Assembly: GCA_002791275.1 (NCBI GenBank) | Contig: PFWT01000009.1 | Span: forward strand, 72,797 to 136,796 | Length of the DNA stretch: 64,000 bases | Origin: Candidatus Uhrbacteria bacterium CG_4_9_14_3_um_filter_41_35 | GTDB lineage: Bacteria; Patescibacteriota; Patescibacteriia; UBA9934 | Direction of reading: 5' to 3' | Part shown: piece after piece, positions 26,922 through 44,563 of the stretch | Layout of the letters: each line of letters opens with the position of its first letter | How positions within the stretch are numbered: the first letter of the stretch is position 1 | Notes under the pieces: generated by a model | What the model saw: the letters and a program-made list of their open reading frames with translations, nothing else | What the model was told of the DNA's origin: nothing | Databases searched by the model: none | Position numbers and translations under genes: made by a program

Positions 26922-28064
26922 ATGCAACACAAAACATGGTTAGAACTTAATAGTGCAAATTTGAGATCCAACATTCAGATGCTTGGATCTCTTTTGTCTT
27001 CCGGAGTTGTATTTTGCGCGGTTGTAAAAGCTAATGCCTACGGTCACGATCTTGAAACAATGGCACGAATACTCGTGCTTGAAGGTATAAATACTTTTGC
27101 AGTTGATTCAGTTGACGAAGCAATGAAACTTCGGGCACATCATCCGAATATCACCATTTTTATTTTAGGCTTTACCGTTCCGGAGCGTTTTAAAGACGTT
27201 ATCAAAGGAGGTTTTATTCAGACAGTGACCGAGCTCGAGACCATTCACAAGCTTGCTCAAGCAGCGCTAGATTTACAGACAAAGGCTAAAATTAATCTAA
27301 AAGTTGAAACCGGCACCCAAAGGCAAGGTATAAACTCGGAAAAAATTAGAGACTTTGCTTTTGAAATAGAAAAAATGAAGGATGACATTGAGTTTGTTGG
27401 TCTTTCGTCACATTTTGCCAATTCAGAGGATGTAAGAAATCCCGATTTTTGTTTAACGCAAAATCAGATATTTTTTAATACCGCTAAAGAACTCGATATC
27501 TACAAAGTACAGCAACCGCATTTTTATCATATTAGTTGTTCTGCCTCAGCAATTAGTCAACCTACCACGCAATTCAATATGGTGCGTATTGGTCTTGCAC
27601 TCTACGGACTCTGGAGTTCAGAGGAGCTTAGACGACAAAATCTTAGTACTAGCAGACACATTGATCTAAAACCCGTACTCAGCTGGAAAACTAGAATTGC
27701 CCAGACTAAAGACGTTAGAGCAGGTGCCACTGTTGGTTATGGTCGAGCATTTTTAGCCGACCGCCCACTGCGTATTGCAGTTCTACCCGTAGGATATTAT
27801 GATGGTTATAGACGCCTAGCAATGAATAAAGGCTACGTTTTGGTAAACGGACAAAAATGTCGTATTCTTGGAAAGATTTGTATGAATATGATGATGATTG
27901 ATGTCTCACAGGTGCCACAGGCGAAAACAGGTAGCGTTGTCACACTGCTCGGACGAGATGGTATGAACGAAATTAAGGCTGAAGATTTAGCAAGCTGGTT
28001 CGAAACCATTAATTACGAAGCTGTAACTGGTATTAGTAGTCATTTACCGCGTATAATCACTTAA
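26922..28064 (+). CDS. alr: alanine racemase
   Basis: 380 aa with the PLP-binding motif AVVKANAYGHD and a C-terminal beta domain. Confidence 0.9.
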   Translation: MQHKTWLELNSANLRSNIQMLGSLLSSGVVFCAVVKANAYGHDLETMARILVLEGINTFAVDSVDEAMKLRAHHPNITIFILGFTVPERFKDVIKGGFIQTVTELETIHKLAQAALDLQTKAKINLKVETGTQRQGINSEKIRDFAFEIEKMKDDIEFVGLSSHFANSEDVRNPDFCLTQNQIFFNTAKELDIYKVQQPHFYHISCSASAISQPTTQFNMVRIGLALYGLWSSEELRRQNLSTSRHIDLKPVLSWKTRIAQTKDVRAGATVGYGRAFLADRPLRIAVLPVGYYDGYRRLAMNKGYVLVNGQKCRILGKICMNMMMIDVSQVPQAKTGSVVTLLGRDGMNEIKAEDLASWFETINYEAVTGISSHLPRIIT

Positions 28065-28083
28065 AACCTGCCTAAACGACCAA

Positions 28084-28989
28084 ATGGAACGGAGAAATTT
28101 TACAAAGACTGTTCACAGTAAAGAATATGAGCAGAAACGGTTTAAAAATCCGTTTTTTGAGAGTCAGGAAGAAAAGCAAAAAAAGTCTTTTAAGTTCTTG
28201 ATTATAGGTCTAGTTCTGATGCTCATCGCCGTCCCTATCATTCTCCTTTTCGGTGGGCTGTTTGAGCTCAAAAATAACTCTGTAAATGGCCTTACTACCA
28301 TTCCCCAGGCTGAGGTTGAAACAGAAATAAACCAGCATTTAGCCACAAAATGGCTGAACATCATTCCAAAGACTCATAAGTGGTTTACTCGTCCAAACGT
28401 GCTACGCGAAAGCTTGCAAAACAAATATAATTTTGAAAATATAAGCGTTAAAATTGAAGGCGATGAACTGAAGGTTGAAGTTGAGGAACGGATTTCTTCG
28501 CTTGCCTGGAAAAGTGCCGGTAATCTGTATTTTTTAGATCTCGACGGAAAGATTTTTAGAGAGATGTTACCTCAGGAACGGGCCAAAATCAATGAACGGC
28601 TAGGCGGAAAGATTGAACTAGTGGCACCCGAAGATATGCAAAGTGTGCCAATACTTCAACCAACACTGCCAATCATCCAGGATATGAGCGAACAGGTTGT
28701 TGAAATTGGGGGGGAGGTTATAAGTCCGGTCACCAGCGAGGCACTGATTAGTTTTGATAAAAACCTACGGTCTTTACATATTGATCCAGTTATTTATCAA
28801 GTTGAAAGACCACACAAACCCTGGCTTAGAGTGAAGACAAGGCAAGGGTACGACATACTCTTTGACGGGCTAGGGGATATGAATGTTCAGATAGCTTACC
28901 TGAACTCAATTTTGATTGAATACAAAGAAAAACTAAGCGAAATTAGCTATATCGACATTCGCTTTGAAAATCATATTTATATAAAGTAA
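28084..28989 (+). CDS. membrane-anchored protein with POTRA-like region (FtsQ/DivIB-like)
   Basis: 301 aa with a single N-terminal TM helix and a segment ISVKIEGDELKVEVEERISSLAWKSAGNLYFLDLDGKIF that resembles a POTRA domain. It sits next to alr. Weak call. Confidence 0.4.
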   Translation: MERRNFTKTVHSKEYEQKRFKNPFFESQEEKQKKSFKFLIIGLVLMLIAVPIILLFGGLFELKNNSVNGLTTIPQAEVETEINQHLATKWLNIIPKTHKWFTRPNVLRESLQNKYNFENISVKIEGDELKVEVEERISSLAWKSAGNLYFLDLDGKIFREMLPQERAKINERLGGKIELVAPEDMQSVPILQPTLPIIQDMSEQVVEIGGEVISPVTSEALISFDKNLRSLHIDPVIYQVERPHKPWLRVKTRQGYDILFDGLGDMNVQIAYLNSILIEYKEKLSEISYIDIRFENHIYIK

Positions 28990-29883
28990 TCGGGGATTCC
29001 CGTAGCAAAAATAATGCGTTAGAAAATTTATTCTAGATTTTACGACACTAGAATAATTGTTAGGTGCCAGTAAGGGGGAGTACTAACCTGTAAAGTTATT
29101 GTATGATCAAGATTCTGTATATTGGTGGTTGGTTTGTAATAAAAAAATTGCAAATTTCAGATATAAAATTTTCTACAAATAAATTCTTTTAATAAAATAA
29201 TGAGACAAAAAATTTATTTAATAAGTTGTGCGACACGATTCAACTTAATGATGATACTAAGGATAAGTTAAGAGCGTCGACTTGAAGCGAAAGAAACTTA
29301 ACTTGACGTTGTGGACTACTTAAAGAGAGTTAAGCAAAAAAATAATTCAACTCTAAGGCCAAGACAAAATCTAAAATAAATCCAAGGTACAAAGATACCT
29401 TATATCTTATACGACGCCACCAGTTTATTTAGGGGTGATAGGTAGTACCGCTTAAAATAAAACTAGAGAATAAAAAGTCTAAAAATTCTTAAAAAAGCCA
29501 ATAAAAACAGTAAAATCAAGCCAAGGTTCAGGACTGAAAATATTTTCCTACCTTATATATTTAATATAAAAAATGATGTCTAGAATCTGATACTTACAGT
29601 AAGTCAGAAAGCTTGAACCAAACCAACAATCAAAATACAGAATCTATTTTAAACTATCAGTATATAAATTATAGCACACCTCCCCACTTTATATTTATAT
29701 ATATGTATGTGTCGTAAAATAAAATATACCCCAAACACATTCTCCACCATCATTTAATTAACAAGAAACCTAATTAAGTATAAAAATATACTGATAATAT
29801 TTTTTTTCGCAGTCGTCACAAACTTTTCAGATCGAATACGAATGCTCAACCATCAAAACTTTACACCACCCCCCTGCTAAGAT

Positions 29884-29917
29884 AAAAAAATCCTGAATAA
29901 CAATTCAGGATTTTTTT
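29884..29917. terminator. perfect intrinsic terminator (A7, 9 bp stem, loop AACA, T7)
   Basis: The sequence is aaaaaaa, atcctgaat, aaca, attcaggat, ttttttt. It lies 3 nt beyond the stop of the minus-strand M23 peptidase gene. Confidence 0.65.
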
Positions 29918-29920
29918 ATC

Positions 29921-31114
29921 TTATTTCAAACCCGGTACATAGTTTCGCGGATCAACTGGAATACCGTTAAGTCTAACCTCAAAGTGAAGGTGTGGCCCGG
30001 TTGAGAAACCAGTTGAACCCACATAACCGATAATATCCCCTCTTGCCACGAACTGATCTTGCTTTACATTAAAGGCAGACATGTGCGCATATAAGGTGGA
30101 AAAACCACCCTCGTGAATTATGATCACATAATTACCATAATCCCGACCTCTCTTGGTCCAGGCTACCACTCCAGGCGCAGACGCTCGAATAGGCGTACCT
30201 GTCGGGGCTGCTAAGTCATGACCTGAGTGTTCGAAGAGATTTCTAAACGGATAGGTTGGATCGTGGAATATTGCGGTTGTAACCGCACTCGGCACCGGAT
30301 CTATGAACACTCCAGGATCGCCAAGATCGGCTGAATTATCTGAATTTCTAATCTTTGCCTCAATTTCCGCCTGCAGTTTTGAAATCTGTGTTGTAATATA
30401 TTGTTGCTCCTGGCGCAATTCACTCATCATTATCCTGTACTCTGCCTCACTGGATTGCGTTTCCGCAATCAGTGTATTCTTTGCCTCTTCATTAGCAGTG
30501 AGTGTGTTAATTTTTTGTTTAAGATCAGCCTCGAGTGAGACTAGACCATCTAAACGTTCCTGCCGGCCAGCCTTATTAGTTTCAAGCCCATCTTTTGCAG
30601 CTTTAGAGGTAGTTAGAGCCTTATTCAAACCCTTGTTCACACTTTCCAGGTTTTCAATTTCAGTAAACATCTGATTGAAATCCTGTGAGCTAAACAGCAC
30701 CTGCACCAAACCAATTTTATCACTCTTGTGTAGCTCGAACAACATTTCTTCAAGCATCGCTTTTTGGTTTTCAATGGTGGCTGTTTCTTCAGTAATTTGT
30801 TTGTCTATTTCTTCGATTTCTAGCTGTTGTTTTTTGATATTCGCTCGAGTTGCCTCAATGTCTAACTTAGCCAGCGCTGTTTGGTTTTCAATGAGTTCGA
30901 TGTCGTTTCGAAGATTAGCAGATTTAGAAGAAAGTTCCTGAATCTTCTTTTTGTATGTATCCATCTTTGAATTAATACTGTCTATCTCGGATTTTTTGTT
31001 TGAGATCTCACTATTTAAACTATCGACCTCAGCATTTTGAGCAAAAACTAAATGCCCGCCACTCATTGTGGTAGAGATAATAATAAGTAAGATGATGTAC
31101 AGTATTTTCCGCAT
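29921..31114 (-). CDS. secreted coiled-coil M23 (LytM-type) metallopeptidase, EnvC-like architecture
   Basis: 397 aa with a signal peptide, about 250 aa of coiled coil, and a C-terminal M23 domain that keeps HSGHDLAAPTGT and HLHFEV, the catalytic Zn ligands. Confidence 0.85.
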   Translation of the reverse strand: MRKILYIILLIIISTTMSGGHLVFAQNAEVDSLNSEISNKKSEIDSINSKMDTYKKKIQELSSKSANLRNDIELIENQTALAKLDIEATRANIKKQQLEIEEIDKQITEETATIENQKAMLEEMLFELHKSDKIGLVQVLFSSQDFNQMFTEIENLESVNKGLNKALTTSKAAKDGLETNKAGRQERLDGLVSLEADLKQKINTLTANEEAKNTLIAETQSSEAEYRIMMSELRQEQQYITTQISKLQAEIEAKIRNSDNSADLGDPGVFIDPVPSAVTTAIFHDPTYPFRNLFEHSGHDLAAPTGTPIRASAPGVVAWTKRGRDYGNYVIIIHEGGFSTLYAHMSAFNVKQDQFVARGDIIGYVGSTGFSTGPHLHFEVRLNGIPVDPRNYVPGLK

Positions 31115-37865: not shown

Positions 37866-38126
37866 ATGAAACACTTCGTTTATCTTGCCCGATGCAAAGA
37901 CAATTCCCTTTACACTGGGACCTGTGTTGATATTCAGGCCCGTGAGGATAAACACAACGCCGGAACAGGGGCAAAGTATACTCGAGCAAAGCGACCGGTG
38001 AAGATTATTTATTTTGAAGAGTTTAAAACACTGTCTGACGCACGAAAACGAGAGGCGGAGATAAAGAAATGGTCAAAGAGTAAGAAAGAGGAACTGATTT
38101 TAAAAATAAAAAAGCCCCGATCCTAA
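37866..38126 (+). CDS. GIY-YIG nuclease-superfamily protein (UPF0213/YhbQ-type)
   Basis: 86 aa with YLARCKDNSLYTGTCVDIQAREDKHN-GTGAKYTRAKRPVKIIYFEEF. This is the GIY-YIG motif pair with the conserved Arg and Glu. Confidence 0.85.
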   Translation: MKHFVYLARCKDNSLYTGTCVDIQAREDKHNAGTGAKYTRAKRPVKIIYFEEFKTLSDARKREAEIKKWSKSKKEELILKIKKPRS

Positions 38127-38158: not shown

Positions 38159-38686
38159 CTAGTTGAGCCGGTCGTTCGACCAGCTAAGGACACATGATGA
38201 GGTGTCCGTTCTTGTGGTGACTTCGTAGTCTCCAAAACGTACTCCGGCCTCCCCCCATTCGGTGTTACCGCAGAACACCTCCTTTGAGGTGATGCCCTCG
38301 AAGATGAGCTGACCGCTCACCTCCACGTCCCCGTCGGGGGGGGCGTTCGGCATGGTGACGGCGTAAGTGCCGTCCCAGCCTGGGTAGACCACGACCGTCT
38401 GGCCGTGGTCTACCCATGATCCGTCCGTGTTTTGTCGCCCCCGGTAGCTGAAGCCGAGCTCCAACCACGTGGAGGTTGTGTCAGATGGCACAACCTCAAG
38501 GTGGTTACTGCCAGGGAGATCGAAATCTCCCTGGCAGTACTCCGTGCCCCAGGGGGCGGAGGTGTTGCAACCTCCGAACCCGCCGGTGGGGGACGTTCCC
38601 GGGCCGCCGTAGCCCGGGTTGTAGCCAACGTCGCAACCCGTGAGGGCTGCGACGAAAAACACGACAGAAAACAGAAACCTGGTCAT
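38159..38686 (-). CDS. high-GC lipoprotein of unknown function (probable horizontally acquired gene)
   Basis: 175 aa. It has a signal peptide with lipobox-like ALTGC, a Gly/Pro-rich linker and 4 further Cys. The gene and about 30 nt of each flank are over 60% GC in a 40% GC background. Many overlapping stop-free frames here are GC artefacts. Confidence 0.65.
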   Translation of the reverse strand: MTRFLFSVVFFVAALTGCDVGYNPGYGGPGTSPTGGFGGCNTSAPWGTEYCQGDFDLPGSNHLEVVPSDTTSTWLELGFSYRGRQNTDGSWVDHGQTVVVYPGWDGTYAVTMPNAPPDGDVEVSGQLIFEGITSKEVFCGNTEWGEAGVRFGDYEVTTRTDTSSCVLSWSNDRLN

Positions 38687-39167
38687 GATGACCTCCGGTC
38701 ATTTATTTAAAGTCCCAGACAGGGGACTATAGTTTCCATAGTCAATTTCAGAATGAAAAAGACTGGATTATATATGTCGGTGAGAAATACACAATCCAGT
38801 CTTTTTAAGCATAATGATGCTTAATGCCTAATTACCCCAGGCTAGGGTCTCTCCTTGTGAAAACTACTGTTACAAGCACTGGTAGCTGTTTAAGTAGGTT
38901 TCTATAAATTGTGAATGGATGATCAAGGGCTCGTACCTCCTTTTCTCATCTTTACTATGATGATACAAATATACCATAAAATGAAGGTTTTGTCAATAGT
39001 AAATCTATATAATCCCCATAACATTAGCCAAATTATACACTTTTGACCGCCGGAACTTAACAAAAGTAATTCTAGATAGAATAGCCAAAATAGGTTAAAA
39101 ACCTGTCGTTTCAAATTTCCATCAAAGTTAAATACTTAACACCTATCTTTTATAATATGGTATTATT

Positions 39168-40583
39168 ATGGTGAAAAAAGATGTAATACTTTATATGAAA
39201 AATTCCCATTTATATACTCTTCTCACCGGAGCGCTTCTGGTTGGGGCGCCAATCAATGCTTTGGCTTTTGATTTCAATCCAAACTATATTTTATCCGACA
39301 GCGAGCTGCATGACTCATTTTCCATGGATCTAAACCAAATCCAGCACTTTCTTAGCCGTGGTTATCTTGAAAACTATGTTACCGAAGACTGGCAAGGTAA
39401 TCTAAAATACGCTTCAGACATTATCTGGCGAGCTGCGCAAAATAATCGAATCAATCCCAAATTCCTGCTGGTACTCCTTCAAAAAGAGCAGAGCCTGGTT
39501 GAAGACAACACCCCAACCGATCGTCAGCTCGACTGGGCAACCGGCTACGCTGTTTGCGATAATTGCAGTAAATCAGACCCAGCCATTCAAAGATGGAAAG
39601 GTTTTGGTAAACAGGTTAACTCCGCCGCAATGCAGTTTTCAGATGGTTATATGGCCGATATTGAAGCCGTTGGCTCAACCCAGGGGATTTACGGGCCAGA
39701 TATTCCTGTTATAATCGACAACCAAGTCTTGGTTCCAGAAAATGCCGCCACTGCCTCAATGTACGCCTACACGCCTCACATTCAGGGAAATCAAAACTTT
39801 GCTTTAATTTGGAACCGCTGGTTCAGTGTTCAGCACCCTACCGGAACTCTTGTTCAAGCAGAAGGCGAACCTGGTATTTATCTTATTGAGTTTGGTTACA
39901 AAAGACCAATTCATAGCTGGAGCGCCTTTATTTCAAGGTTCAACAAAGATTTAGTTATCACGGTTTCAAAATCTGCACTCGATAATTACCCTGACGGTCG
40001 AGCTATCGATTTCCCTAACTACTCACTGTTACAAGATGAAAATGGTGAGATCTATTTGCTAGTTAACGACTCACTCAGACACTTTGATTCACTCGAAACC
40101 TTTAAAAAAATTGGTTTCTCTGAAGACGAAATTGTTGAAATAAAAAACTCCGATGTTGCCGGTTTCGATCTTGGTGAAGAACTCACTTACAAATCCTCAA
40201 ATCCTCGCGGAGACCTACTGCAGTTAAACACAAACGGTGCGGTTTTCCACATTAAAGACGGTGTGAGGCACGCTATTAACGATCCTTCAATTTTAAAGGC
40301 TCGTTTTCCAAATGAAGCTGTAACTCAAGTTAGCCCTACCGTAGTTGAGCAGTACAAAGAGGGTCAGGCCCTAAATTTCCCTGATGGCTATTTAGTAAAG
40401 TCAGACGACGATCCAACTGTGTATGTAATCTCAGAGGGTAAGAAAAAACCAATTGTGAGTGGTGCTGTTTTCACCTCGTATGGTTGGGATTGGGCAGATA
40501 TTGTTACGGTTGATAAATACACATTAATGCTTCACGAAACAGGTTTATCAATCACAGACGCAGCTGACGGTTCAACCAATTAA
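39168..40583 (+). CDS. secreted protein with 3-4 degenerate ~60 aa tandem repeats
   Basis: 471 aa. A signal peptide (MKNSHLYTLLTGALLVGAPINALA, alternative ATG at 39195) is followed by an N-terminal domain with NPKFLLVLLQKEQSL. Repeats follow of the form hYhI-x2-G-x-KRPI...F, e.g. GIYLIEFGYKRPIHS, EIYLLVNDSLRHFDS, VFHIKDGVRHAINDPS and TVYVISEGKKKPIVS. Confidence 0.5.
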   Translation: MVKKDVILYMKNSHLYTLLTGALLVGAPINALAFDFNPNYILSDSELHDSFSMDLNQIQHFLSRGYLENYVTEDWQGNLKYASDIIWRAAQNNRINPKFLLVLLQKEQSLVEDNTPTDRQLDWATGYAVCDNCSKSDPAIQRWKGFGKQVNSAAMQFSDGYMADIEAVGSTQGIYGPDIPVIIDNQVLVPENAATASMYAYTPHIQGNQNFALIWNRWFSVQHPTGTLVQAEGEPGIYLIEFGYKRPIHSWSAFISRFNKDLVITVSKSALDNYPDGRAIDFPNYSLLQDENGEIYLLVNDSLRHFDSLETFKKIGFSEDEIVEIKNSDVAGFDLGEELTYKSSNPRGDLLQLNTNGAVFHIKDGVRHAINDPSILKARFPNEAVTQVSPTVVEQYKEGQALNFPDGYLVKSDDDPTVYVISEGKKKPIVSGAVFTSYGWDWADIVTVDKYTLMLHETGLSITDAADGSTN

Positions 40584-40622: not shown

Positions 40623-41414
40623 ATGTTAGTTTTCTCCGCATTTACACCTAATTCTCCCCTGCTACTGCCGGAGATCAACAAAGACAAAGCTCATCGACTC
40701 GAAAAAACGACCGAAGCTATGGCCGAGCTCGCTGATGAACTTTATGCCACGCATCCTGAAACTATAATTTTAATTTCAATGCACCCTACCATTTTTAATG
40801 GTAGCTTTTCTATTGCGCTTAAAGATCCATTCACTTTCGATCTTAGTGAGTTTGGAGAGCTAAGTTTTGATAAAAAAATCAAACCAGATATTGAACTCAT
40901 TAACGAACTCCAAGATTCACTCAGATCTCAAGGTCAACCGGTCACGCTTACTTCAGACGAAACTCTTAACTACGCCTCAGCTGTACCTTTGCAAATCCTG
41001 ACCGAAGATTTGAAAAATGTAAAACTTGTAGCAATTACCTATTCAGAACTCGACACAAAATCACATTTTCAGTTTGGTAATGCGTTAAAAGAAACTATTA
41101 TGAGTAGCGATAAACGCATTGCCGTTATTGCTGTGGGTGATATGTCGCACGCTCTTACAAACAATTCACCAGCCGATTTTCATCCAGACGGAGAAAAGTA
41201 CGACAAAAAAATTCAGGAGCTAATTGCCCAAAAAAATACCGTTGGTCTTATCAGTTTAGATGAGAAGCTAATTGAAAATGCCGTAGAAAATTCCTACAGA
41301 TCCCTTACAATTCTATTTGGATTACTCGACCGGATTTCAGTAAAGCCAGAAATTTTAAACTACGAAGCACCTTTTGGCGTTGGTTATTTAGTTGCTAACT
41401 TCGCAATCAAATAA
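40623..41414 (+). CDS. LigB/Memo-like (class III extradiol dioxygenase fold) protein
   Basis: 263 aa. ISMHPTIF and VGDMSHAL resemble the SAHW and SGNxxHNL motifs of YgiD/LigB-type proteins. The N-terminal GHGSP-type His appears replaced (FTPNSP). Confidence 0.45.
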   Translation: MLVFSAFTPNSPLLLPEINKDKAHRLEKTTEAMAELADELYATHPETIILISMHPTIFNGSFSIALKDPFTFDLSEFGELSFDKKIKPDIELINELQDSLRSQGQPVTLTSDETLNYASAVPLQILTEDLKNVKLVAITYSELDTKSHFQFGNALKETIMSSDKRIAVIAVGDMSHALTNNSPADFHPDGEKYDKKIQELIAQKNTVGLISLDEKLIENAVENSYRSLTILFGLLDRISVKPEILNYEAPFGVGYLVANFAIK

Positions 41415-41415
41415 T

Positions 41416-43149
41416 ATGTTTGCCGAAATTTATCCTTTGGTAAGAATGCCGAGGAGGTTCGGTCATTTTGATTATTCTATTCCTGCTAATCTTTCGCTTC
41501 AGGCAGGAGATTTGGTCGAAATAAGTTTCCGAAATAGAATCATTCGCGGAGTTGTAAAAAAAACTAAGGCAACGACTACTGTTAAAAAAACTTTACCCGT
41601 AGTTTCAATTCTGATAAAGAATTTAATGAATGCAGATGATATTGCACGATTTGAAACAATTGCCCGCGCCGTAGTTCAATCACCATCAACGATTCTTCAC
41701 AGTGCACTTGGTCAACTTCGTAACCGTAATAACTTAGTCCAGTCCAATGTTTTTAAGAGCCAACCTTTTTCGGTTTCAAAAGAAATTGTAAAAGATATTC
41801 AAAAAATCTTAAAGGATACGAACGAGGATGTTAACGAAGTATTTTTTCAAACCTCAAACGAAGGTGCCTTTGCGCTGATTTCAGTTTTACGAAAAAAATT
41901 CAAAAATCAAATCCTGATCGTTGCACCACGAGAAAAATTAACCACTGAACTCATAGGGTTAATCGACCTAGGCGATTCCGCCCAAATCTTGCACGGTCAC
42001 ACTAAACCCAGGGATCGAGAAGCGATAATTAAGGCCTGGGCACAAGGTACAATTAAAACCCTAATTGGTAGTCGCCAGGTGTCAACCTTGCCAGCAAAAA
42101 AAATTGATGCAATTATAATTCTCGAAAGCGCCAGCGACGACTACACCCATCTTGAAAGAAATCCCAGAGTGGACCCAAGACGAGCTGTTGAACTGCTCAA
42201 AACTCAGCACTCCGCAAAACTGTTTTATACATCGTACGTGCCAAGCTTAGAGACAATTTACAAAAAAATTCCTTTATTTCTATGTGATCTTCCTAAACCA
42301 ATAGTGATTAATCTTGAGGCACAGGAAGAAAACATTGGCGTACCTTTTCTAACAGATCAGCTATTTAAAGCCATCTATACATCTTTACAAAACCGTAAAT
42401 CTGTGTTACTTTCATTTAACCGCAAGGGAGTTGCAAATAGACTTCAATGTGCTAAATGTGACCATATTCCAACCTGCGGTTCCTGTGGTTCAGTACCGAT
42501 TGTGCGAACTGATGATCTTGCCTGTCCTAACTGCGGAGTTGAGATGTGGATACCGGCTAAATGCCCAGGGTGCAATAGCGATCGTCTAAAACAACGTGGT
42601 ATTGGTAACAAGCGACTAAAGACAGAGATTCAAAAACAGTTTCCAGAAGTAACTGTCGGGATAGTTGATAAAAGTACTAATGAATCTAATGCAGATATAA
42701 TTATTGTTACCGAGTTTTTTTTCAAAAACTTACTCCACACCTTTCCACAAAAAAAATTCGGGGTTGTGGCAGAACTGAGTTTTGACAACGCGCTGATTGG
42801 CAATGATTTCCGGGCTTCTGAATACGCAACCTTTAAACTGTTTAGACTAATGACGATTGCCGAGCAACAAAACGCAACCTGTCTTATTCAAACTTGGGTT
42901 CCGGAGGTGGTGAGGAGCATGCTCAACATTCAAAAATATTTGCTCAGTGAACTTTCTCTGAGAGAAAAATACAGACTCCCACCAATATCTATTTTAGCTA
43001 CAATAACAAATAAGAAAGATAAACTTGAAGATACAGGGACTGTTAATCAAGAAAATCTGCCCGAATTATTTAATAAACCAGATGAAGAAACGATCTTTAT
43101 CGACACCGCATCATATGAGCCATTTAGAAGTACTGAAAAATCCGAATAA
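41416..43149 (+). CDS. priA: primosomal protein N' (PriA)-like, helicase motifs degenerate
   Basis: 577 aa. It has the PriA N-terminal 3'-DNA-binding domain start (MFAEIYPLVRMPRRFGHFDYSIP...GDLVEISF) and the four-CxxC zinc-binding insert (CAKCDHIPTCGSC...CPNCG...CPGCNSD). Co-linearity with def-fmt supports orthology. Walker A, DEEH and GSATP positions read TSNEGAFA, LESASD and TSYVP. Confidence 0.7.
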   Translation: MFAEIYPLVRMPRRFGHFDYSIPANLSLQAGDLVEISFRNRIIRGVVKKTKATTTVKKTLPVVSILIKNLMNADDIARFETIARAVVQSPSTILHSALGQLRNRNNLVQSNVFKSQPFSVSKEIVKDIQKILKDTNEDVNEVFFQTSNEGAFALISVLRKKFKNQILIVAPREKLTTELIGLIDLGDSAQILHGHTKPRDREAIIKAWAQGTIKTLIGSRQVSTLPAKKIDAIIILESASDDYTHLERNPRVDPRRAVELLKTQHSAKLFYTSYVPSLETIYKKIPLFLCDLPKPIVINLEAQEENIGVPFLTDQLFKAIYTSLQNRKSVLLSFNRKGVANRLQCAKCDHIPTCGSCGSVPIVRTDDLACPNCGVEMWIPAKCPGCNSDRLKQRGIGNKRLKTEIQKQFPEVTVGIVDKSTNESNADIIIVTEFFFKNLLHTFPQKKFGVVAELSFDNALIGNDFRASEYATFKLFRLMTIAEQQNATCLIQTWVPEVVRSMLNIQKYLLSELSLREKYRLPPISILATITNKKDKLEDTGTVNQENLPELFNKPDEETIFIDTASYEPFRSTEKSE

Positions 43150-43603
43150 AGAGCTTCGCGAAACCTCGCGCGTGCTTTCTGTTGTGGAAATTCTTTCTGA
43201 GAAGTACCAAACCTTAGCAGACAATATGATTCAAACCACCAAAGAAGAAAATGGCGTTGGTCTTGCTGCTCCACAGATCGGTGAACATGTACGTTTAATT
43301 ATTTGTGATACTGGCAAAGAACTAGTGCCATTTTTCAACCCCATTATTACTGATTTTTCAACTAAACTAATGGTTAGCGAAGAAGGCTGTCTTTCGATTC
43401 CTGGTGTTTTTGGCTTAGTAAACCGTCATCGAACGGTTAAGGTTGAGGCGCTAACGAGAGATGGTGAGAAAATAAAGCTAACCGCAGGTGGGCTAATTTC
43501 TACTATTTTTCAACATGAAATTGATCACTTAGACGGGATTTTATTTATTGATCGAGCTACGATTTTAAAGGATGCCAAAACCGGTAAACGCATCGAGATA
43601 TAA
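43115..43603 (+). CDS. def: peptide deformylase
   Basis: The ATG at 43115 is preferred; the track start at 43025 overlaps priA. It carries the three PDF motifs GVGLAAPQIG, EGCLSIPG and QHEIDHLDG. Confidence 0.9.
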   Translation: MSHLEVLKNPNKELRETSRVLSVVEILSEKYQTLADNMIQTTKEENGVGLAAPQIGEHVRLIICDTGKELVPFFNPIITDFSTKLMVSEEGCLSIPGVFGLVNRHRTVKVEALTRDGEKIKLTAGGLISTIFQHEIDHLDGILFIDRATILKDAKTGKRIEI

Positions 43604-43606
43604 TTT

Positions 43607-44563
43607 ATGAATATAGTATTTTTCGGCACACCAGATTTTGCCAGAGATTTTTTAAAAGAGCTCTATGAAGATCAAGATATAAATATTTGTGCAGTCGTTG
43701 CTCAAAGTGACAAACCGGTTGGCCGAAAACAAATACTCACTCCCCCTGCTACAAAAGTATTTGCCCTGCAAAACAATATTCCAGTCTTGCAACCTGAAAA
43801 ACTTAAGGATCAAGCGGTACTAGAAGAGCTCAAGAAGTTTAATGCTGATATTTTTGTTATCGTGGCCTACGGAAAAATTATTCCACAAAATATTCTAGAT
43901 ATACCAAAACTTGGTAATATAAACGTTCACCCTTCAAAATTACCAAAATATCGCGGTCCTTCACCTTTACAGGCTGTAATTGAGGCCGGAGATTCAGAAA
44001 CTGCAATTTCAGTAATGTTAATCGATGATAAAATGGACCACGGTCCTTTACTAGCTCAGCAAACTCTAAAACTCGATGCACAAGAAACGCCGGAAACGCT
44101 ACGTGCTAAAGTTGTAACGATTGGCAGTCCACTCTTGGTAGCCACACTAAAAAATTTCGTTGCAGGTAAAATCATCCCACAAGATCAAGATCACGAAAAA
44201 GCAACTTTCTGTAAACTGCTCGAAAAAGAAGATGGTGAAATAGACTGGCACATACCAGCTGAAATCATAGAACGTCGGCGCAGAGCATACGATCCTTGGC
44301 CGGGCGTCTACACCAATTTAAGTTTCGAAGATGCGGGTAAGGTTCAGAAAATAAAAATCCACTCCTTGAAATTTATTAGTCCGGATTGGTTTAGTGAAAG
44401 TCTAAAGCCTGGTGAGGTCCGAATTTATGAAAAAAGACTACTTGTCGGAACCGCAACAGTGCCAATTGAGATATTAAAACTTCAACCTGAAAACAAAGCA
44501 GTTATGGACGCAAAAGCCTACATTAATGGCAATCAGGAAATCAATGGAAAAATACTTGGGTAA
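43607..44563 (+). CDS. fmt: methionyl-tRNA formyltransferase
   Basis: 318 aa starting MNIVFFGTPDFA. It has the formyltransferase N domain with the HPS motif and a C-terminal tRNA-binding domain, and sits directly after def. Confidence 0.9.
   Translation: MNIVFFGTPDFARDFLKELYEDQDINICAVVAQSDKPVGRKQILTPPATKVFALQNNIPVLQPEKLKDQAVLEELKKFNADIFVIVAYGKIIPQNILDIPKLGNINVHPSKLPKYRGPSPLQAVIEAGDSETAISVMLIDDKMDHGPLLAQQTLKLDAQETPETLRAKVVTIGSPLLVATLKNFVAGKIIPQDQDHEKATFCKLLEKEDGEIDWHIPAEIIERRRRAYDPWPGVYTNLSFEDAGKVQKIKIHSLKFISPDWFSESLKPGEVRIYEKRLLVGTATVPIEILKLQPENKAVMDAKAYINGNQEINGKILG

What the first reader, a model, noticed from the sequence alone, without database searches (positions are those of the whole stretch)
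41416..43149. PriA homolog that keeps the 3'-DNA-binding and zinc-finger domains but has degenerate ATPase/helicase motifs
The protein is co-linear with PriA. It has an N-terminal 3'BD start, a segment alignable to helicase motifs I-III, and the four-CxxC zinc-binding insert. It sits in the conserved priA-def-fmt arrangement. At the alignable positions, the Walker A GxGKT reads TSNEGAFA (no Lys/Thr), DEEH reads LESASD, and GSATP reads TSYVP. This predicts loss of ATP hydrolysis, while the DNA-binding and Cys4-Cys4 Zn modules are intact. It may act as a replication-restart scaffold, or be repurposed, rather than as a motor. A pseudo-helicase PriA in a reduced genome is notable.
Basis: partly seen in the sequence, partly recalled or inferred. 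Interest (0 to 1): 0.6.

Follow-up and report, generated by a model that had tools for sequence, protein, structure and literature searches.

The report
ATPase-dead PriA in Uhrbacteria
This gene is the replication-restart protein PriA of a tiny-genome (Patescibacteria/Uhrbacteria) bacterium that has lost every ATP-burning helicase motif but keeps its DNA-fork-binding and zinc modules under strong selection; this is a second, more extreme natural case of the "PriA pseudohelicase" already shown in Deinococcus.

Summary
Observation confirmed. Window 41416-43149 (+) encodes a 577-aa PriA ortholog, identical to a "hypothetical protein" of Candidatus Uhrbacteria. Profile-profile alignment (probability 100%, E 1e-65) and an AF2 model whose best PDB match is E. 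coli PriA without its winged helix both show PriA.

All ATPase motifs are gone:
- Walker A Lys/Thr are Ser147/Asn148.
- DEEH reads LESA and SAT reads SYV.
- GTQxxxKG reads TEFFFKN and QxxGRxGR reads RLMTIAEQ.
- No such motif occurs in any register.

Kept: the 3'BD FDY pocket, motif IV, the fork-junction loop (RNPRxDxR) and all eight zinc cysteines.

It is not a pseudogene. dN/dS is about 0.065 (0.045 over helicase lobe 1). The exact protein recurs on at least 24 contigs. At least 150 clusters at 50% identity share the motif-less state. LigB-priA*-def-fmt synteny holds in 28 of 28 species genomes. Patescibacteria show canonical, partly eroded and fully eroded PriAs; the two eroded grades sit at the same locus, and the canonical example shares only upstream neighbours because its contig ends within the gene.

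Most likely it recognises abandoned forks and recruits the replicative helicase without unwinding DNA, like D. radiodurans PriA or E. coli priA300. It is a new lineage of a known kind, of moderate interest. Whether the genome also holds a second, intact priA could not be tested.

The parts
41416..43149 (+). priA* gene: 577-aa PriA ortholog without ATPase motifs (pI 9.15, about 65 kDa)
   Evidence: Identical to P0001, Candidatus Uhrbacteria 'hypothetical protein COY25_02885'.
41416..41715 (+). 3'-DNA-binding domain (aa 1-100), with the F18-D19-Y20 pocket motif and K57/K58
   Evidence: Pfam PF17764, E 2e-8. FDY aligns to E. coli F16-D17-Y18. F18, D19 and Y20 are at least 90% conserved and G31-D32 are invariant in the clade. 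Pocket residues are taken from PMC5778457.
41716..41820 (+). Short linker (aa 101-135) in place of the winged-helix domain
   Evidence: hhalign leaves a gap of about 118 columns against the canonical WH region. The best PDB match is E. coli PriA with WH deleted, 6dcr. This segment has the lowest pLDDT outside the CRR.
41821..42285 (+). Helicase lobe 1 relic (aa 136-290), a RecA-like fold without motifs I, II and III
   Evidence: AF2 model and Foldseek. dN/dS 0.045.
41839..41874 (+). Walker A relic VFFQTSNEGAFA (aa 142-153); Ser147 and Asn148 occupy the Lys and Thr positions
   Evidence: Column conservation is 0.41 here against 0.93 in canonical PriA.
42112..42135 (+). Motif II relic IIILESAS (aa 233-240); LESA replaces DEEH
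   Evidence: Variable across the clade (LESA, LDAG, LEAG, YDPT and others).
42139..42183 (+). Retained aromatic-rich-loop equivalent, the fork-junction wedge: DYTHLERNPRVDPRR (aa 242-256)
   Evidence: R248 and P250 are invariant, and N249, R251 and D253 are at least 90% conserved, in the clade. It aligns to E. coli Y327...W333-R334-Y335-H336-A337-R338. The (Q/R)NPR[YF]xAR loop is shared by canonical, intermediate and eroded Patescibacteria PriAs. Its role is described in PMC5175346 and PMC10175261.
42229..42246 (+). Motif III relic TSYVPS (aa 272-277)
42406..42432 (+). Retained motif IV LLSFNRKGV (aa 331-339)
   Evidence: N335, K337 and G338 are invariant. Conservation is 0.82 against 0.86 in canonical PriA.
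42448..42573 (+). Cys-rich region with four CxxC pairs (two predicted Zn sites) and the clade-specific EMWIP motif (aa 345-386)
   Evidence: All eight Cys are invariant. Conservation is 0.73 against 0.57 in canonical PriA. dN/dS 0.047.
42700..42729 (+). Motif V relic IIVTEFFFKN (aa 429-438); the clade-specific T-E-[YF]-[YF]-F replaces GTQxxxKG
   Evidence: T432 is invariant; E433 and F436 are at least 90% conserved.
42844..42873 (+). Motif VI relic RLMTIAEQQN (aa 477-486); no arginine fingers
   Evidence: 0 of 177 clade proteins carry QxxGRxGR.
42991..43146 (+). Reduced C-terminal module (aa 526-577), modelled as beta-beta-alpha-beta; the least constrained part
   Evidence: No PriA_C Pfam hit. 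hhalign ends at about aa 534. Secondary structure. dN/dS 0.24. Conservation 0.35.
40623..41414 (+). LigB/Memo-like gene; its stop lies 1 nt before the priA* start. A conserved operon neighbour; no functional link is shown.
43115..43603 (+). def (peptide deformylase); its start overlaps the priA* 3' end by 35 nt
43607..44563 (+). fmt (methionyl-tRNA formyltransferase)

Best explanation
This is the single-locus priA ortholog of an Uhrbacteria (Patescibacteria/CPR) bacterium, and it has become a pseudohelicase. The PriA fold is kept: a 3'BD, two RecA-like lobes, a zinc-binding Cys-rich insert and a small C-terminal module. Every residue set needed to bind and hydrolyse ATP has been replaced (P-loop Lys/Thr, the DExH acid and base, motif III, motif V, the motif VI arginine fingers).

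Shown here: the motifs are absent, the fold is PriA, the gene is under strong purifying selection, and the DNA-contacting elements and zinc ligands are the best-conserved parts.

Inferred: the protein still does the ATP-independent half of PriA's job.
1. It recognises an abandoned fork or D-loop. [quoted passage not shown]
2. The retained lobe-1 loop (R248-N249-P250-R251) wedges at the junction.
3. The inert lobes, the Cys-rich region and the C-terminal module hold lagging-strand ssDNA.
4. The strongly conserved Cys-rich surface then presents a docking site for the next factor, either the replicative helicase DnaB directly or its loader, so that the replisome is reloaded.

It cannot unwind a duplex lagging arm. 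Forks that need remodelling would have to be handled by another helicase or not at all.
For: PriA orthology:
- hhalign probability 100%, E 1.2e-65, collinear.
- AF2 model at pLDDT 88 and pTM 0.88. The top nine PDB matches are all PriA at E 2e-30 to 5e-24 and TM about 0.62-0.69; the next match is Mfd at 5e-11.
- The gene sits in unk-LigB-priA*-def-fmt in 28 of 28 GTDB species loci. Canonical PriAs of Actinobacteria and Xenobia MAGs also sit in priA-def-fmt.
- The partly eroded Patescibacteria PriA (P0244) lies at the same locus. The canonical Moranbacteria PriA (P0342) shares only upstream neighbours, gltX and wecG, and its contig ends within the gene.

ATPase loss:
- Motif tables.
- No motif in any register.
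- Walker A column conservation drops from 0.93 to 0.41, below the clade mean.

The gene is functional:
- dN/dS is 0.065 overall, 0.045 in lobe 1 and 0.047 in the Cys-rich region.
- The identical protein occurs on at least 24 contigs from different samples.
- At least 150 clusters at 50% identity share the state.

DNA and partner modules are kept:
- FDY, motif IV, the ARL-like loop and eight invariant Cys.
- Cys-rich region conservation rises from 0.57 to 0.73.

Precedent for the mechanism:
- D. radiodurans PriA has no ATPase or helicase activity but binds ssDNA, forks and DnaB (PMC4504706).
- E. coli priA300 K230R supports restart (PMC5778457).
- The cryo-EM roles of the 3'BD, the HD1 loop and the CRR/HD2/CTD pore come from PMC10175261.
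Against: - There is no biochemistry for this protein. DNA binding, zinc binding and any partner are all inferred.
- The C-terminal domain helps form the ssDNA pore and the SSB site in E. coli PriA. Here it is reduced and poorly conserved, and the WH domain is missing, so fork binding may differ from the E. coli model.
- priA* diverges faster than its neighbours (32-45% identity against 41-65%). That fits partly relaxed constraint.
- Only 64 kb of the genome was searched, so a second, canonical PriA is not excluded.
- dS is near saturation (1.45), so the dN/dS value is approximate.
Confidence: 0.75

Rival explanations
1. The protein has been repurposed. It keeps structure-specific DNA binding but works outside replication restart, for example as a fork or 3'-end sensor in repair or regulation. 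Restart would then be done by another factor, or by a second PriA encoded elsewhere.
For: - Clade-specific conserved motifs (TE[YF][YF]F, EMWIP, QTW) and a Cys-rich region more conserved than in canonical PriA suggest a new or tightened interaction surface.
- WH is lost and the CTD is reduced.
- The rest of the genome was not examined.
Against: - The gene keeps the ancestral locus, and the partly eroded grade sits at that same locus, which argues for continuity of function.
- The elements retained are exactly those PriA uses for fork recognition.
- A helicase-dead PriA is known to be enough for restart (PMC4504706, PMC5778457).
- No second PriA lies in the window.
Confidence: 0.13
2. It is still an active ATPase or helicase that uses non-canonical residues or a shifted nucleotide site.
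For: - Biochemical hints of a second, weaker nucleotide site in E. coli PriA are mentioned in PMC5778457.
- A few clade members carry AxxLHGKT near aa 187.
Against: - P0001 has no GK[ST], no DExx and no arginine-finger motif anywhere.
- The AxxLHGKT string is homologous to canonical WHSxLT, not a P-loop. It occurs in 9 of 177 members and is absent from this protein.
- The positions of motifs I, II, III and VI are variable within the clade, so none of them is a selected active site.
- A single K230R change already kills E. coli PriA ATPase (PMC4504706, PMC5778457).
Confidence: 0.04
3. It is a decaying remnant, a pseudogene in progress in a shrinking genome, with no function.
For: - The catalytic motifs are lost.
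- It diverges faster than neighbouring genes.
- Its C-terminus is variable.
Against: - The reading frame of about 553-610 aa is intact across at least 150 clusters at 50% identity.
- dN/dS is about 0.065.
- 27 columns are invariant, including all eight Cys.
- The AF2 model is confident.
- Streamlined CPR genomes would be expected to delete a useless 1.7-kb gene.
Confidence: 0.03
4. It is an extra, degenerate paralog that coexists with an intact PriA encoded elsewhere in the same genome.
For: Only 64 kb of this genome, plus flanks of no more than 10 kb in relatives, could be inspected.
Against: - It occupies the ancestral priA-def-fmt position.
- The partly eroded form occupies the same locus in related lineages, and the canonical Moranbacteria gene shares upstream neighbours. 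That pattern indicates orthologous replacement, not duplication.
- tblastn of seven PriAs against the window hits only this gene.
- From general knowledge, priA is normally single-copy.
Confidence: 0.05

Closest known systems
Canonical PriA replication-restart helicase (E. coli / K. pneumoniae; PDB 4NL4, 6DCR, 6DGD, 8FAK; TIGR00595)
   Same: - Collinear sequence, hhalign probability 100%.
- Same fold: 3'BD, two RecA-like lobes, a Cys-rich zinc insert in lobe 2.
- FDY 3'-end pocket, motif IV, the loop after motif II, four CxxC pairs.
- priA-def-fmt gene order, as in the Actinobacteria and Xenobia MAG loci.
   Different: - Motifs I, II, III, V and VI are all absent.
- No winged-helix domain, and the C-terminal domain is cut to about 50 aa with no PF18074 hit.
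- Scores below the TIGR00595 cutoff, 126 against 230 bits.
[quoted passage not shown]
Deinococcus radiodurans / Deinococcus-Thermus PriA pseudohelicase (Lopper et al. 2015, PMC4504706)
   Same: A natural PriA ortholog with degenerate Walker A and B motifs that is retained in the genome. The predicted outcome is the same: no ATPase or helicase activity, with fork binding and replisome recruitment kept.
   Different: - The Deinococcus-Thermus proteins differ mainly in motifs I and II; Walker A keeps G-R-T, with Lys changed to Arg. Here all ATPase motifs are erased.
- The lineage is different (Patescibacteria), and its own canonical, intermediate and eroded series implies an independent loss.
- The Deinococcus case is proven biochemically. 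This one is sequence inference only.
E. coli priA300 (K230R) and K230A/D laboratory alleles
   Same: ATPase-, helicase- and translocase-dead PriA that still assembles primosomes and supports restart through the PriA-PriB route (PMC5778457). This is the functional model for what the protein here can still do.
   Different: Those alleles carry an engineered single substitution in an otherwise intact helicase. They depend on PriB and DnaT, and no homologs of these were seen or sought here.
Partly eroded and canonical Patescibacteria PriAs (P0244/P0042 group; Moranbacteria P0342)
   Same: - P0244 sits in the same ClpB...unk-LigB...priA-def-fmt neighbourhood. P0342 shares only the upstream gltX and wecG genes, and its contig ends within the gene.
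- Same short architecture without WH.
- Same (Q/R)NPR[YF]xAR loop.
   Different: - P0342 keeps GPASSGKT, DEEQ, GTQ and GRTGR.
- The P0244 group has lost motifs I and VI but keeps DxEE, GT[QE] and a PriA_C signal.
- The window protein has lost all of these.

Membership tests
PriA (replication restart protein, TIGR00595 / PRK05580) | N-terminal 3'-DNA-binding domain (PF17764) with the FDY 3'-end pocket | tested here: met
   PF17764 scores E 2e-8, 34.4 bits against a 22.7-bit cutoff. F18-D19-Y20 aligns to E. coli F16-D17-Y18 and is at least 90% conserved in the clade.
PriA (replication restart protein, TIGR00595 / PRK05580) | Two RecA-like SF2 lobes in the PriA arrangement (fold) | tested here: met
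   AF2 pLDDT 88. Foldseek's top nine hits are all PriA, at E 2e-30 to 5e-24 and TM 0.62-0.69.
PriA (replication restart protein, TIGR00595 / PRK05580) | SF2 ATPase motifs I (GxGKT), II (DExH), III (SAT), V and VI (QxxGRxGR) | tested here: not met
   All absent at the aligned positions and in every other register.
PriA (replication restart protein, TIGR00595 / PRK05580) | Cys-rich region with four CxxC pairs inserted in lobe 2 | tested here: met
   C345/348, 354/357, 370/373 and 383/386; all eight are invariant in 38 sequences. Zinc binding itself was not tested.
PriA (replication restart protein, TIGR00595 / PRK05580) | C-terminal domain (PF18074 PriA_C) | tested here: not met
   No PF18074 hit at E up to 1. 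hhalign stops near aa 534. Only a module of about 50 aa remains.
PriA (replication restart protein, TIGR00595 / PRK05580) | Score at or above the curated equivalog cutoff | tested here: not met
   TIGR00595 scores 126 bits against a cutoff of 230.35. The NF0040xx models score 87-132 bits against cutoffs of 763-1249.
PriA (replication restart protein, TIGR00595 / PRK05580) | Orthology by position (priA-def-fmt) and by descent | tested here: met
   Synteny holds in 28 of 28 clade loci and in canonical outgroups. The partly eroded grade P0244 sits at the same locus. The canonical Moranbacteria P0342 shares only upstream gltX and wecG, and its downstream genes are off the contig.
PriA (replication restart protein, TIGR00595 / PRK05580) | Structure-specific fork and D-loop binding, and primosome assembly | not testable with these tools
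   Inferred only, from the conserved 3'BD pocket, motif IV and the junction loop.
PriA pseudohelicase (as defined for D. radiodurans PriA, PMC4504706) | Clearly derived from an ancestral PriA helicase | tested here: met
PriA pseudohelicase (as defined for D. radiodurans PriA, PMC4504706) | Catalytic Walker A Lys and Walker B residues replaced | tested here: met
   Lys is Ser147, Thr is Asn148, and DEEH reads LESA.
PriA pseudohelicase (as defined for D. radiodurans PriA, PMC4504706) | No ATP hydrolysis and no duplex unwinding in vitro | not testable with these tools
   Predicted from the sequence; needs purified protein.
PriA pseudohelicase (as defined for D. radiodurans PriA, PMC4504706) | Retained ssDNA and fork binding, and interaction with the cognate DnaB | not testable with these tools
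PriA pseudohelicase (as defined for D. radiodurans PriA, PMC4504706) | Gene maintained by selection (not a pseudogene) | tested here: met
   dN/dS about 0.065; at least 150 intact clusters at 50% identity.

The most novel reading that the evidence does not exclude
A major Patescibacteria lineage has turned PriA into a purely passive, ATP-independent fork-recognition adaptor. It eroded stepwise (canonical, then loss of motifs I and VI, then loss of all motifs plus CTD reduction) while tightening selection on the zinc-bound Cys-rich surface. On this reading the clade defines a minimal PriA (3'BD, junction loop, Cys-rich region, inert RecA scaffold). Its Cys-rich region, with the clade-specific EMWIP and TE[YF]FF motifs, would dock an as yet unidentified CPR-specific partner, or DnaB directly. 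That would be a helicase-free restart pathway distinct from both the PriA-PriB-DnaT and the PriA-DnaD-DnaB-DnaI schemes.
Probability: 0.35. Interest if true: 0.6.

Novelty: new member of a known kind. Interest (0 to 1): 0.42.

Why it matters

- **A second natural case.** This clade is independent and much larger, and the erosion is complete, not limited to motifs I and II. Intermediate grades survive in related lineages.
- **A separation-of-function series.** What selection keeps is the 3'-end pocket, motif IV, the fork-junction loop and the zinc module. What it discards is the ATP site, the WH domain and most of the CTD. This maps the part of PriA needed for its essential, motor-independent job.
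- **A minimal scaffold.** The protein is a compact candidate for structural and reconstitution work.
- **An annotation gap.** These proteins fall below the TIGR00595 cutoff and are often labelled "hypothetical protein", so replication restart looks absent from many CPR genomes when it probably is not.

Tried and rejected
- **Shifted registration or a motif elsewhere.** Rejected by the regex scan of the whole protein and of 177 clade members. The nine A..LHGKT strings are homologous to canonical WHSxLT and are absent from this protein.
- **Pseudogene.** Rejected by dN/dS, invariant columns and breadth of the clade.
- **Assembly artefact.** Rejected, because the identical protein occurs on at least 24 contigs from different samples.
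- **Weak Pfam Helicase_C hit and DbpA/Hera PDB hits on aa 154-221.** I considered that lobe 1 might have been swapped for a lobe-2-like domain. Rejected, because hhalign is collinear with PriA lobe 1, with a long similar block LHG..R..W..G.I.LIGTR matching WHS..ER..W..G.A.VVGARSA.
- **Second priA in the window.** tblastn with seven PriAs hit only this gene.
- **AFDB50 fold search.** It would have shown whether other phyla have catalogued motif-less PriAs, but the library was unavailable.
- **Literature on PriA in CPR/Patescibacteria.** Three searches found no paper pairing PriA or 'primosomal protein' with a CPR term among the papers listed. A search on mycobacterial PriA was uninformative.
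- **UniProt note on actinobacterial PriA.** I recall that UniProt flags actinobacterial PriA as lacking detectable helicase domains. I could not verify this, so it is not used as evidence. The two Actinobacteria MAG PriAs fetched here are fully canonical.
- **Side checks of the window.** No tRNA, no Rfam family, no dif-like site.
- **Functional link to the LigB-like and 471-aa neighbours.** The synteny is conserved, but nothing ties them mechanistically to PriA, so they are left as neighbours.
Full report
**1. What is at the coordinates**

Window 41416-43149 (+) is an intact ORF of 577 aa. An alternative TTG start lies at 41392, but public gene calls use the ATG. The product is identical to P0001, a "hypothetical protein COY25_02885" of Candidatus Uhrbacteria bacterium CG_4_10_14_0_2_um_filter_41. 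The exact sequence was found on at least 24 independently assembled contigs (49 index blocks), so it is not an assembly artefact.

The upstream LigB/Memo-like gene stops 1 nt before the ATG. def starts 35 nt before the priA* stop, and fmt follows. The rest of the 64 kb is housekeeping: aminoacyl-tRNA synthetases, ATP synthase, MreB, PBP2, MurJ, ClpB and ribosomal proteins. It holds no other helicase or replication gene. tblastn with seven PriAs hits only this gene.

**2. It is PriA**

- Pfam finds the PriA 3'-DNA-binding domain above threshold.
- NCBIfam PriA equivalogs match at E 1e-25 to 1e-38, but far below their cutoffs; TIGR00595 scores 126 against 230 bits.
- phmmer finds the K. pneumoniae and E. 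coli PriA structures at E 4e-17.
- A profile of 38 clade members aligns to a profile of 37 canonical PriAs with probability 100%, E 1.2e-65, over 525 collinear columns.
- An AlphaFold2 model built on the clade alignment is confident (pLDDT 88.2, pTM 0.88).
- The model's nine best PDB matches are all PriA. The top one is E. coli PriA lacking its winged-helix domain (6dcr, E 2e-30, TM 0.67). The next family, Mfd, is about 20 orders of magnitude weaker.

The predicted architecture is as follows:

| Residues | Module |
|---|---|
| 1-100 | 3'BD |
| 101-135 | short linker in place of the WH domain |
| 136-290 | lobe 1 |
| 291-340 and 396-525 | lobe 2 |
| 341-395 | Cys-rich insert in lobe 2 |
| 526-577 | small C-terminal module, beta-beta-alpha-beta |

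**3. The ATPase machinery is gone**

MAFFT, phmmer and hhalign agree on the register.

| Motif | Canonical | This protein |
|---|---|---|
| I (Walker A) | VTGSGKTEV | VFFQTSNEG (Lys is Ser147, Thr is Asn148) |
| II | DEEH | LESA |
| III | SATP | SYVP |
| V | GTQxxxKG | TEFFFKN |
| VI | QxxGRxGR | RLMTIAEQ |

At similar overall alignment conservation (0.54 for the clade, 0.52 for canonical PriAs), conservation at the catalytic positions falls. Walker A drops to 0.41, below the clade average.

| Element | Canonical | Clade |
|---|---|---|
| Walker A | 0.93 | 0.41 |
| Motif II | 0.86 | 0.57 |
| Motif III | 0.87 | 0.57 |
| Motif VI | 0.80 | 0.59 |

So these positions are no longer a selected site.

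**4. What is kept**

- The 3'BD pocket motif F18-D19-Y20 aligns to E. coli F16-D17-Y18 and is at least 90% conserved. A Lys equivalent to E. coli K61 is present (residue roles from PMC5778457).
- Motif IV (NRKG) is invariant.
- The loop just after motif II reads Y243...R248-N249-P250-R251-x-D253-x-R255. In E. coli this is the aromatic-rich loop that crosslinks to, and wedges into, the fork junction (PMC5175346, PMC10175261). R248 and P250 are invariant in the clade, and N249, R251 and D253 are at least 90% conserved. The loop has the same (Q/R)NPR[YF]xAR form in canonical Patescibacteria PriAs, although the adjacent DEEH has been erased.
- All eight cysteines of the four CxxC pairs are invariant. 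The Cys-rich region is more conserved in the clade (0.73) than in canonical PriAs (0.57).
- New clade-specific conserved strings appear: TE[YF][YF]F, EMWIP and QTW.

In short, the nucleic-acid-contacting and zinc elements are retained, and the nucleotide-contacting elements are lost.

**5. It is a working gene, and the state is old and widespread**

Compared with an 84%-identical relative (L040), pN is 0.088 and pS is 0.64. That gives dN/dS of about 0.065. dS is near saturation, so the ratio is approximate.

| Region | dN/dS |
|---|---|
| whole gene | 0.065 |
| lobe 1 | 0.045 |
| Cys-rich region | 0.047 |
| 3'BD | 0.094 |
| C-terminus | 0.24 |
| LigB-like neighbour | 0.044 |
| def neighbour | 0.007 |

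A profile search of 1.84 billion representatives returned 150 best hits, each standing for a cluster at 50% identity. When aligned to a canonical PriA HMM, every one lacks motifs I, II and VI. Named members are Uhrbacteria or "Patescibacteria group".

**6. Orthology and evolutionary series**

In 28 of 28 clade loci from GTDB species genomes the order is [about 460-aa unknown]-[LigB-like]-priA*-def-fmt. The same holds for members only 27% identical and for P0153.

Fully canonical PriAs of two Actinobacteria MAGs carry GVTGSGKT, DEEH, GSATP, GTQMVAKG and QVSGRAGR. They, and the PriA of a Xenobia MAG (motifs not checked), also sit in priA-def-fmt. The clade gene therefore occupies the ancestral locus.

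Within Patescibacteria there are three grades:

| Grade | Example | Motif state |
|---|---|---|
| Canonical | Moranbacteria P0342 | GPASSGKT / DEEQ / GTQ / GRTGR |
| Partly eroded | P0244, P0042 group | motifs I and VI lost; DxEE and GT[QE] remain; PriA_C signal kept |
| Fully eroded | this clade | all motifs lost |

The partly eroded P0244 lies in the same ClpB...unk-LigB...priA-def-fmt neighbourhood as the window. The Moranbacteria gene shares the upstream gltX-wecG genes, but it lies at a contig end, so its downstream genes are not visible. This pattern indicates progressive erosion of one ortholog, not a paralog beside an intact PriA.

A second priA elsewhere in the genome could not be excluded directly, because only the window and flanks of no more than 10 kb were accessible.

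**7. Mechanism**

Shown here: PriA fold and ancestry, absence of any ATP site, purifying selection, and retention of the fork-recognition elements and zinc ligands.

Inferred: the protein performs the ATP-independent part of PriA's role.
1. It binds abandoned forks or D-loops through the 3'BD pocket, the junction loop and the inert lobes.
2. It offers the Cys-rich surface to the next factor, so that DnaB can be reloaded.
3. It cannot unwind a duplex lagging arm.

Three published results support this reading. E. coli priA300 (K230R) is ATPase-, helicase- and translocase-dead yet restart-proficient (PMC5778457). D. radiodurans PriA has no ATPase or helicase activity but binds ssDNA (Kd about 215 nM), forks (about 109 nM) and DnaB (PMC4504706). 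In the E. coli cryo-EM complex, fork recognition and partner docking are structural and do not depend on catalysis (PMC10175261).

Caveats:
- The WH domain is absent.
- The CTD contributes to the ssDNA pore, to leading-strand contacts and to the SSB site in E. coli. Here it is reduced and weakly constrained.
- priA* evolves faster than its neighbours.
- The partner is unknown.

**8. Comparison with what is known, and novelty**

As a family member, the protein is a PriA ortholog by fold, collinearity, 3'BD, Cys-rich region and locus. It fails the helicase-motif, CTD and equivalog-score criteria. It is therefore best described as a PriA-derived pseudohelicase, not as "replication restart helicase PriA".

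That kind is already known from Deinococcus-Thermus, and the 2017 review treats Deinococcus as the sole exception. This case differs in lineage (an independent loss with intermediates preserved) and in degree (all motifs, plus WH and CTD reduction). It also affects a very large uncultured clade whose members are often annotated "hypothetical". Three literature searches returned no paper pairing PriA or 'primosomal protein' with a CPR term among those listed.

I rate it a new member of a known kind, bordering on a new variant. Interest is moderate: a specialist would find it useful more than startling.

Noticed in passing
window 39168-40583 (+): A 471-aa protein with an N-terminal hydrophobic segment that looks like a signal sequence and no Pfam hit. 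It is 53-65% identical across all 28 clade loci, so it is better conserved than priA*. It always lies directly upstream of the LigB-like gene and priA*. Function unknown.
   Followed up: partly
window 40623-41414 (+): A LigB/Memo-like 263-aa gene whose stop codon is 1 nt from the priA* start, which suggests translational coupling. The LigB-like gene lies directly upstream of priA* in every clade locus. In the partly eroded P0244 locus two phosphoribosyltransferase genes separate them. No mechanistic link to PriA is evident.
   Followed up: partly
window 38159-38710 (both strands): A 175-aa lipoprotein-like ORF on the minus strand sits in a locally GC-rich patch (45.5% against about 40%), with a 92-aa antisense ORF. 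Gene callers choose different strands in different assemblies of the same sequence. No Pfam hit is on record. It may be a recent acquisition.
   Followed up: no
window ~28000-30000 (gap 28990-29920): The cumulative GC skew peaks here. The GC content is the lowest in the window (35%), and the flanking genes converge on a 930-bp ORF-free gap. This would fit a terminus-like switch in replication direction. No E. coli-type dif site was found at up to 3 mismatches.
   Followed up: partly
window 41875-42078 (aa 154-221 of PriA*): The weak Pfam Helicase_C hit and the DbpA/Hera hits, which are to the second RecA domain of DEAD-box proteins, fall on PriA* lobe 1 and not on lobe 2. The LHG..R..W..G.I.LIGT block resembles the Helicase_C consensus. 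It is judged to be generic RecA-fold similarity.
   Followed up: partly
window 1-64000: No tRNA gene and no Rfam family reached threshold anywhere in the 64 kb.
   Followed up: yes
L017, L019-L021, L026, L028-L030 (GTDB genome loci): Several MAGs titled 'uncultured Gammaproteobacteria bacterium' carry the Uhrbacteria-type priA* in the full Uhrbacteria synteny. Their record titles are probably taxonomic mislabels.
   Followed up: no
window 37866-38126 (+): A small stand-alone GIY-YIG nuclease-domain protein of 86 aa lies between ClpB and the priA* block. It is present in all three assemblies of this locus that were inspected.
   Followed up: no
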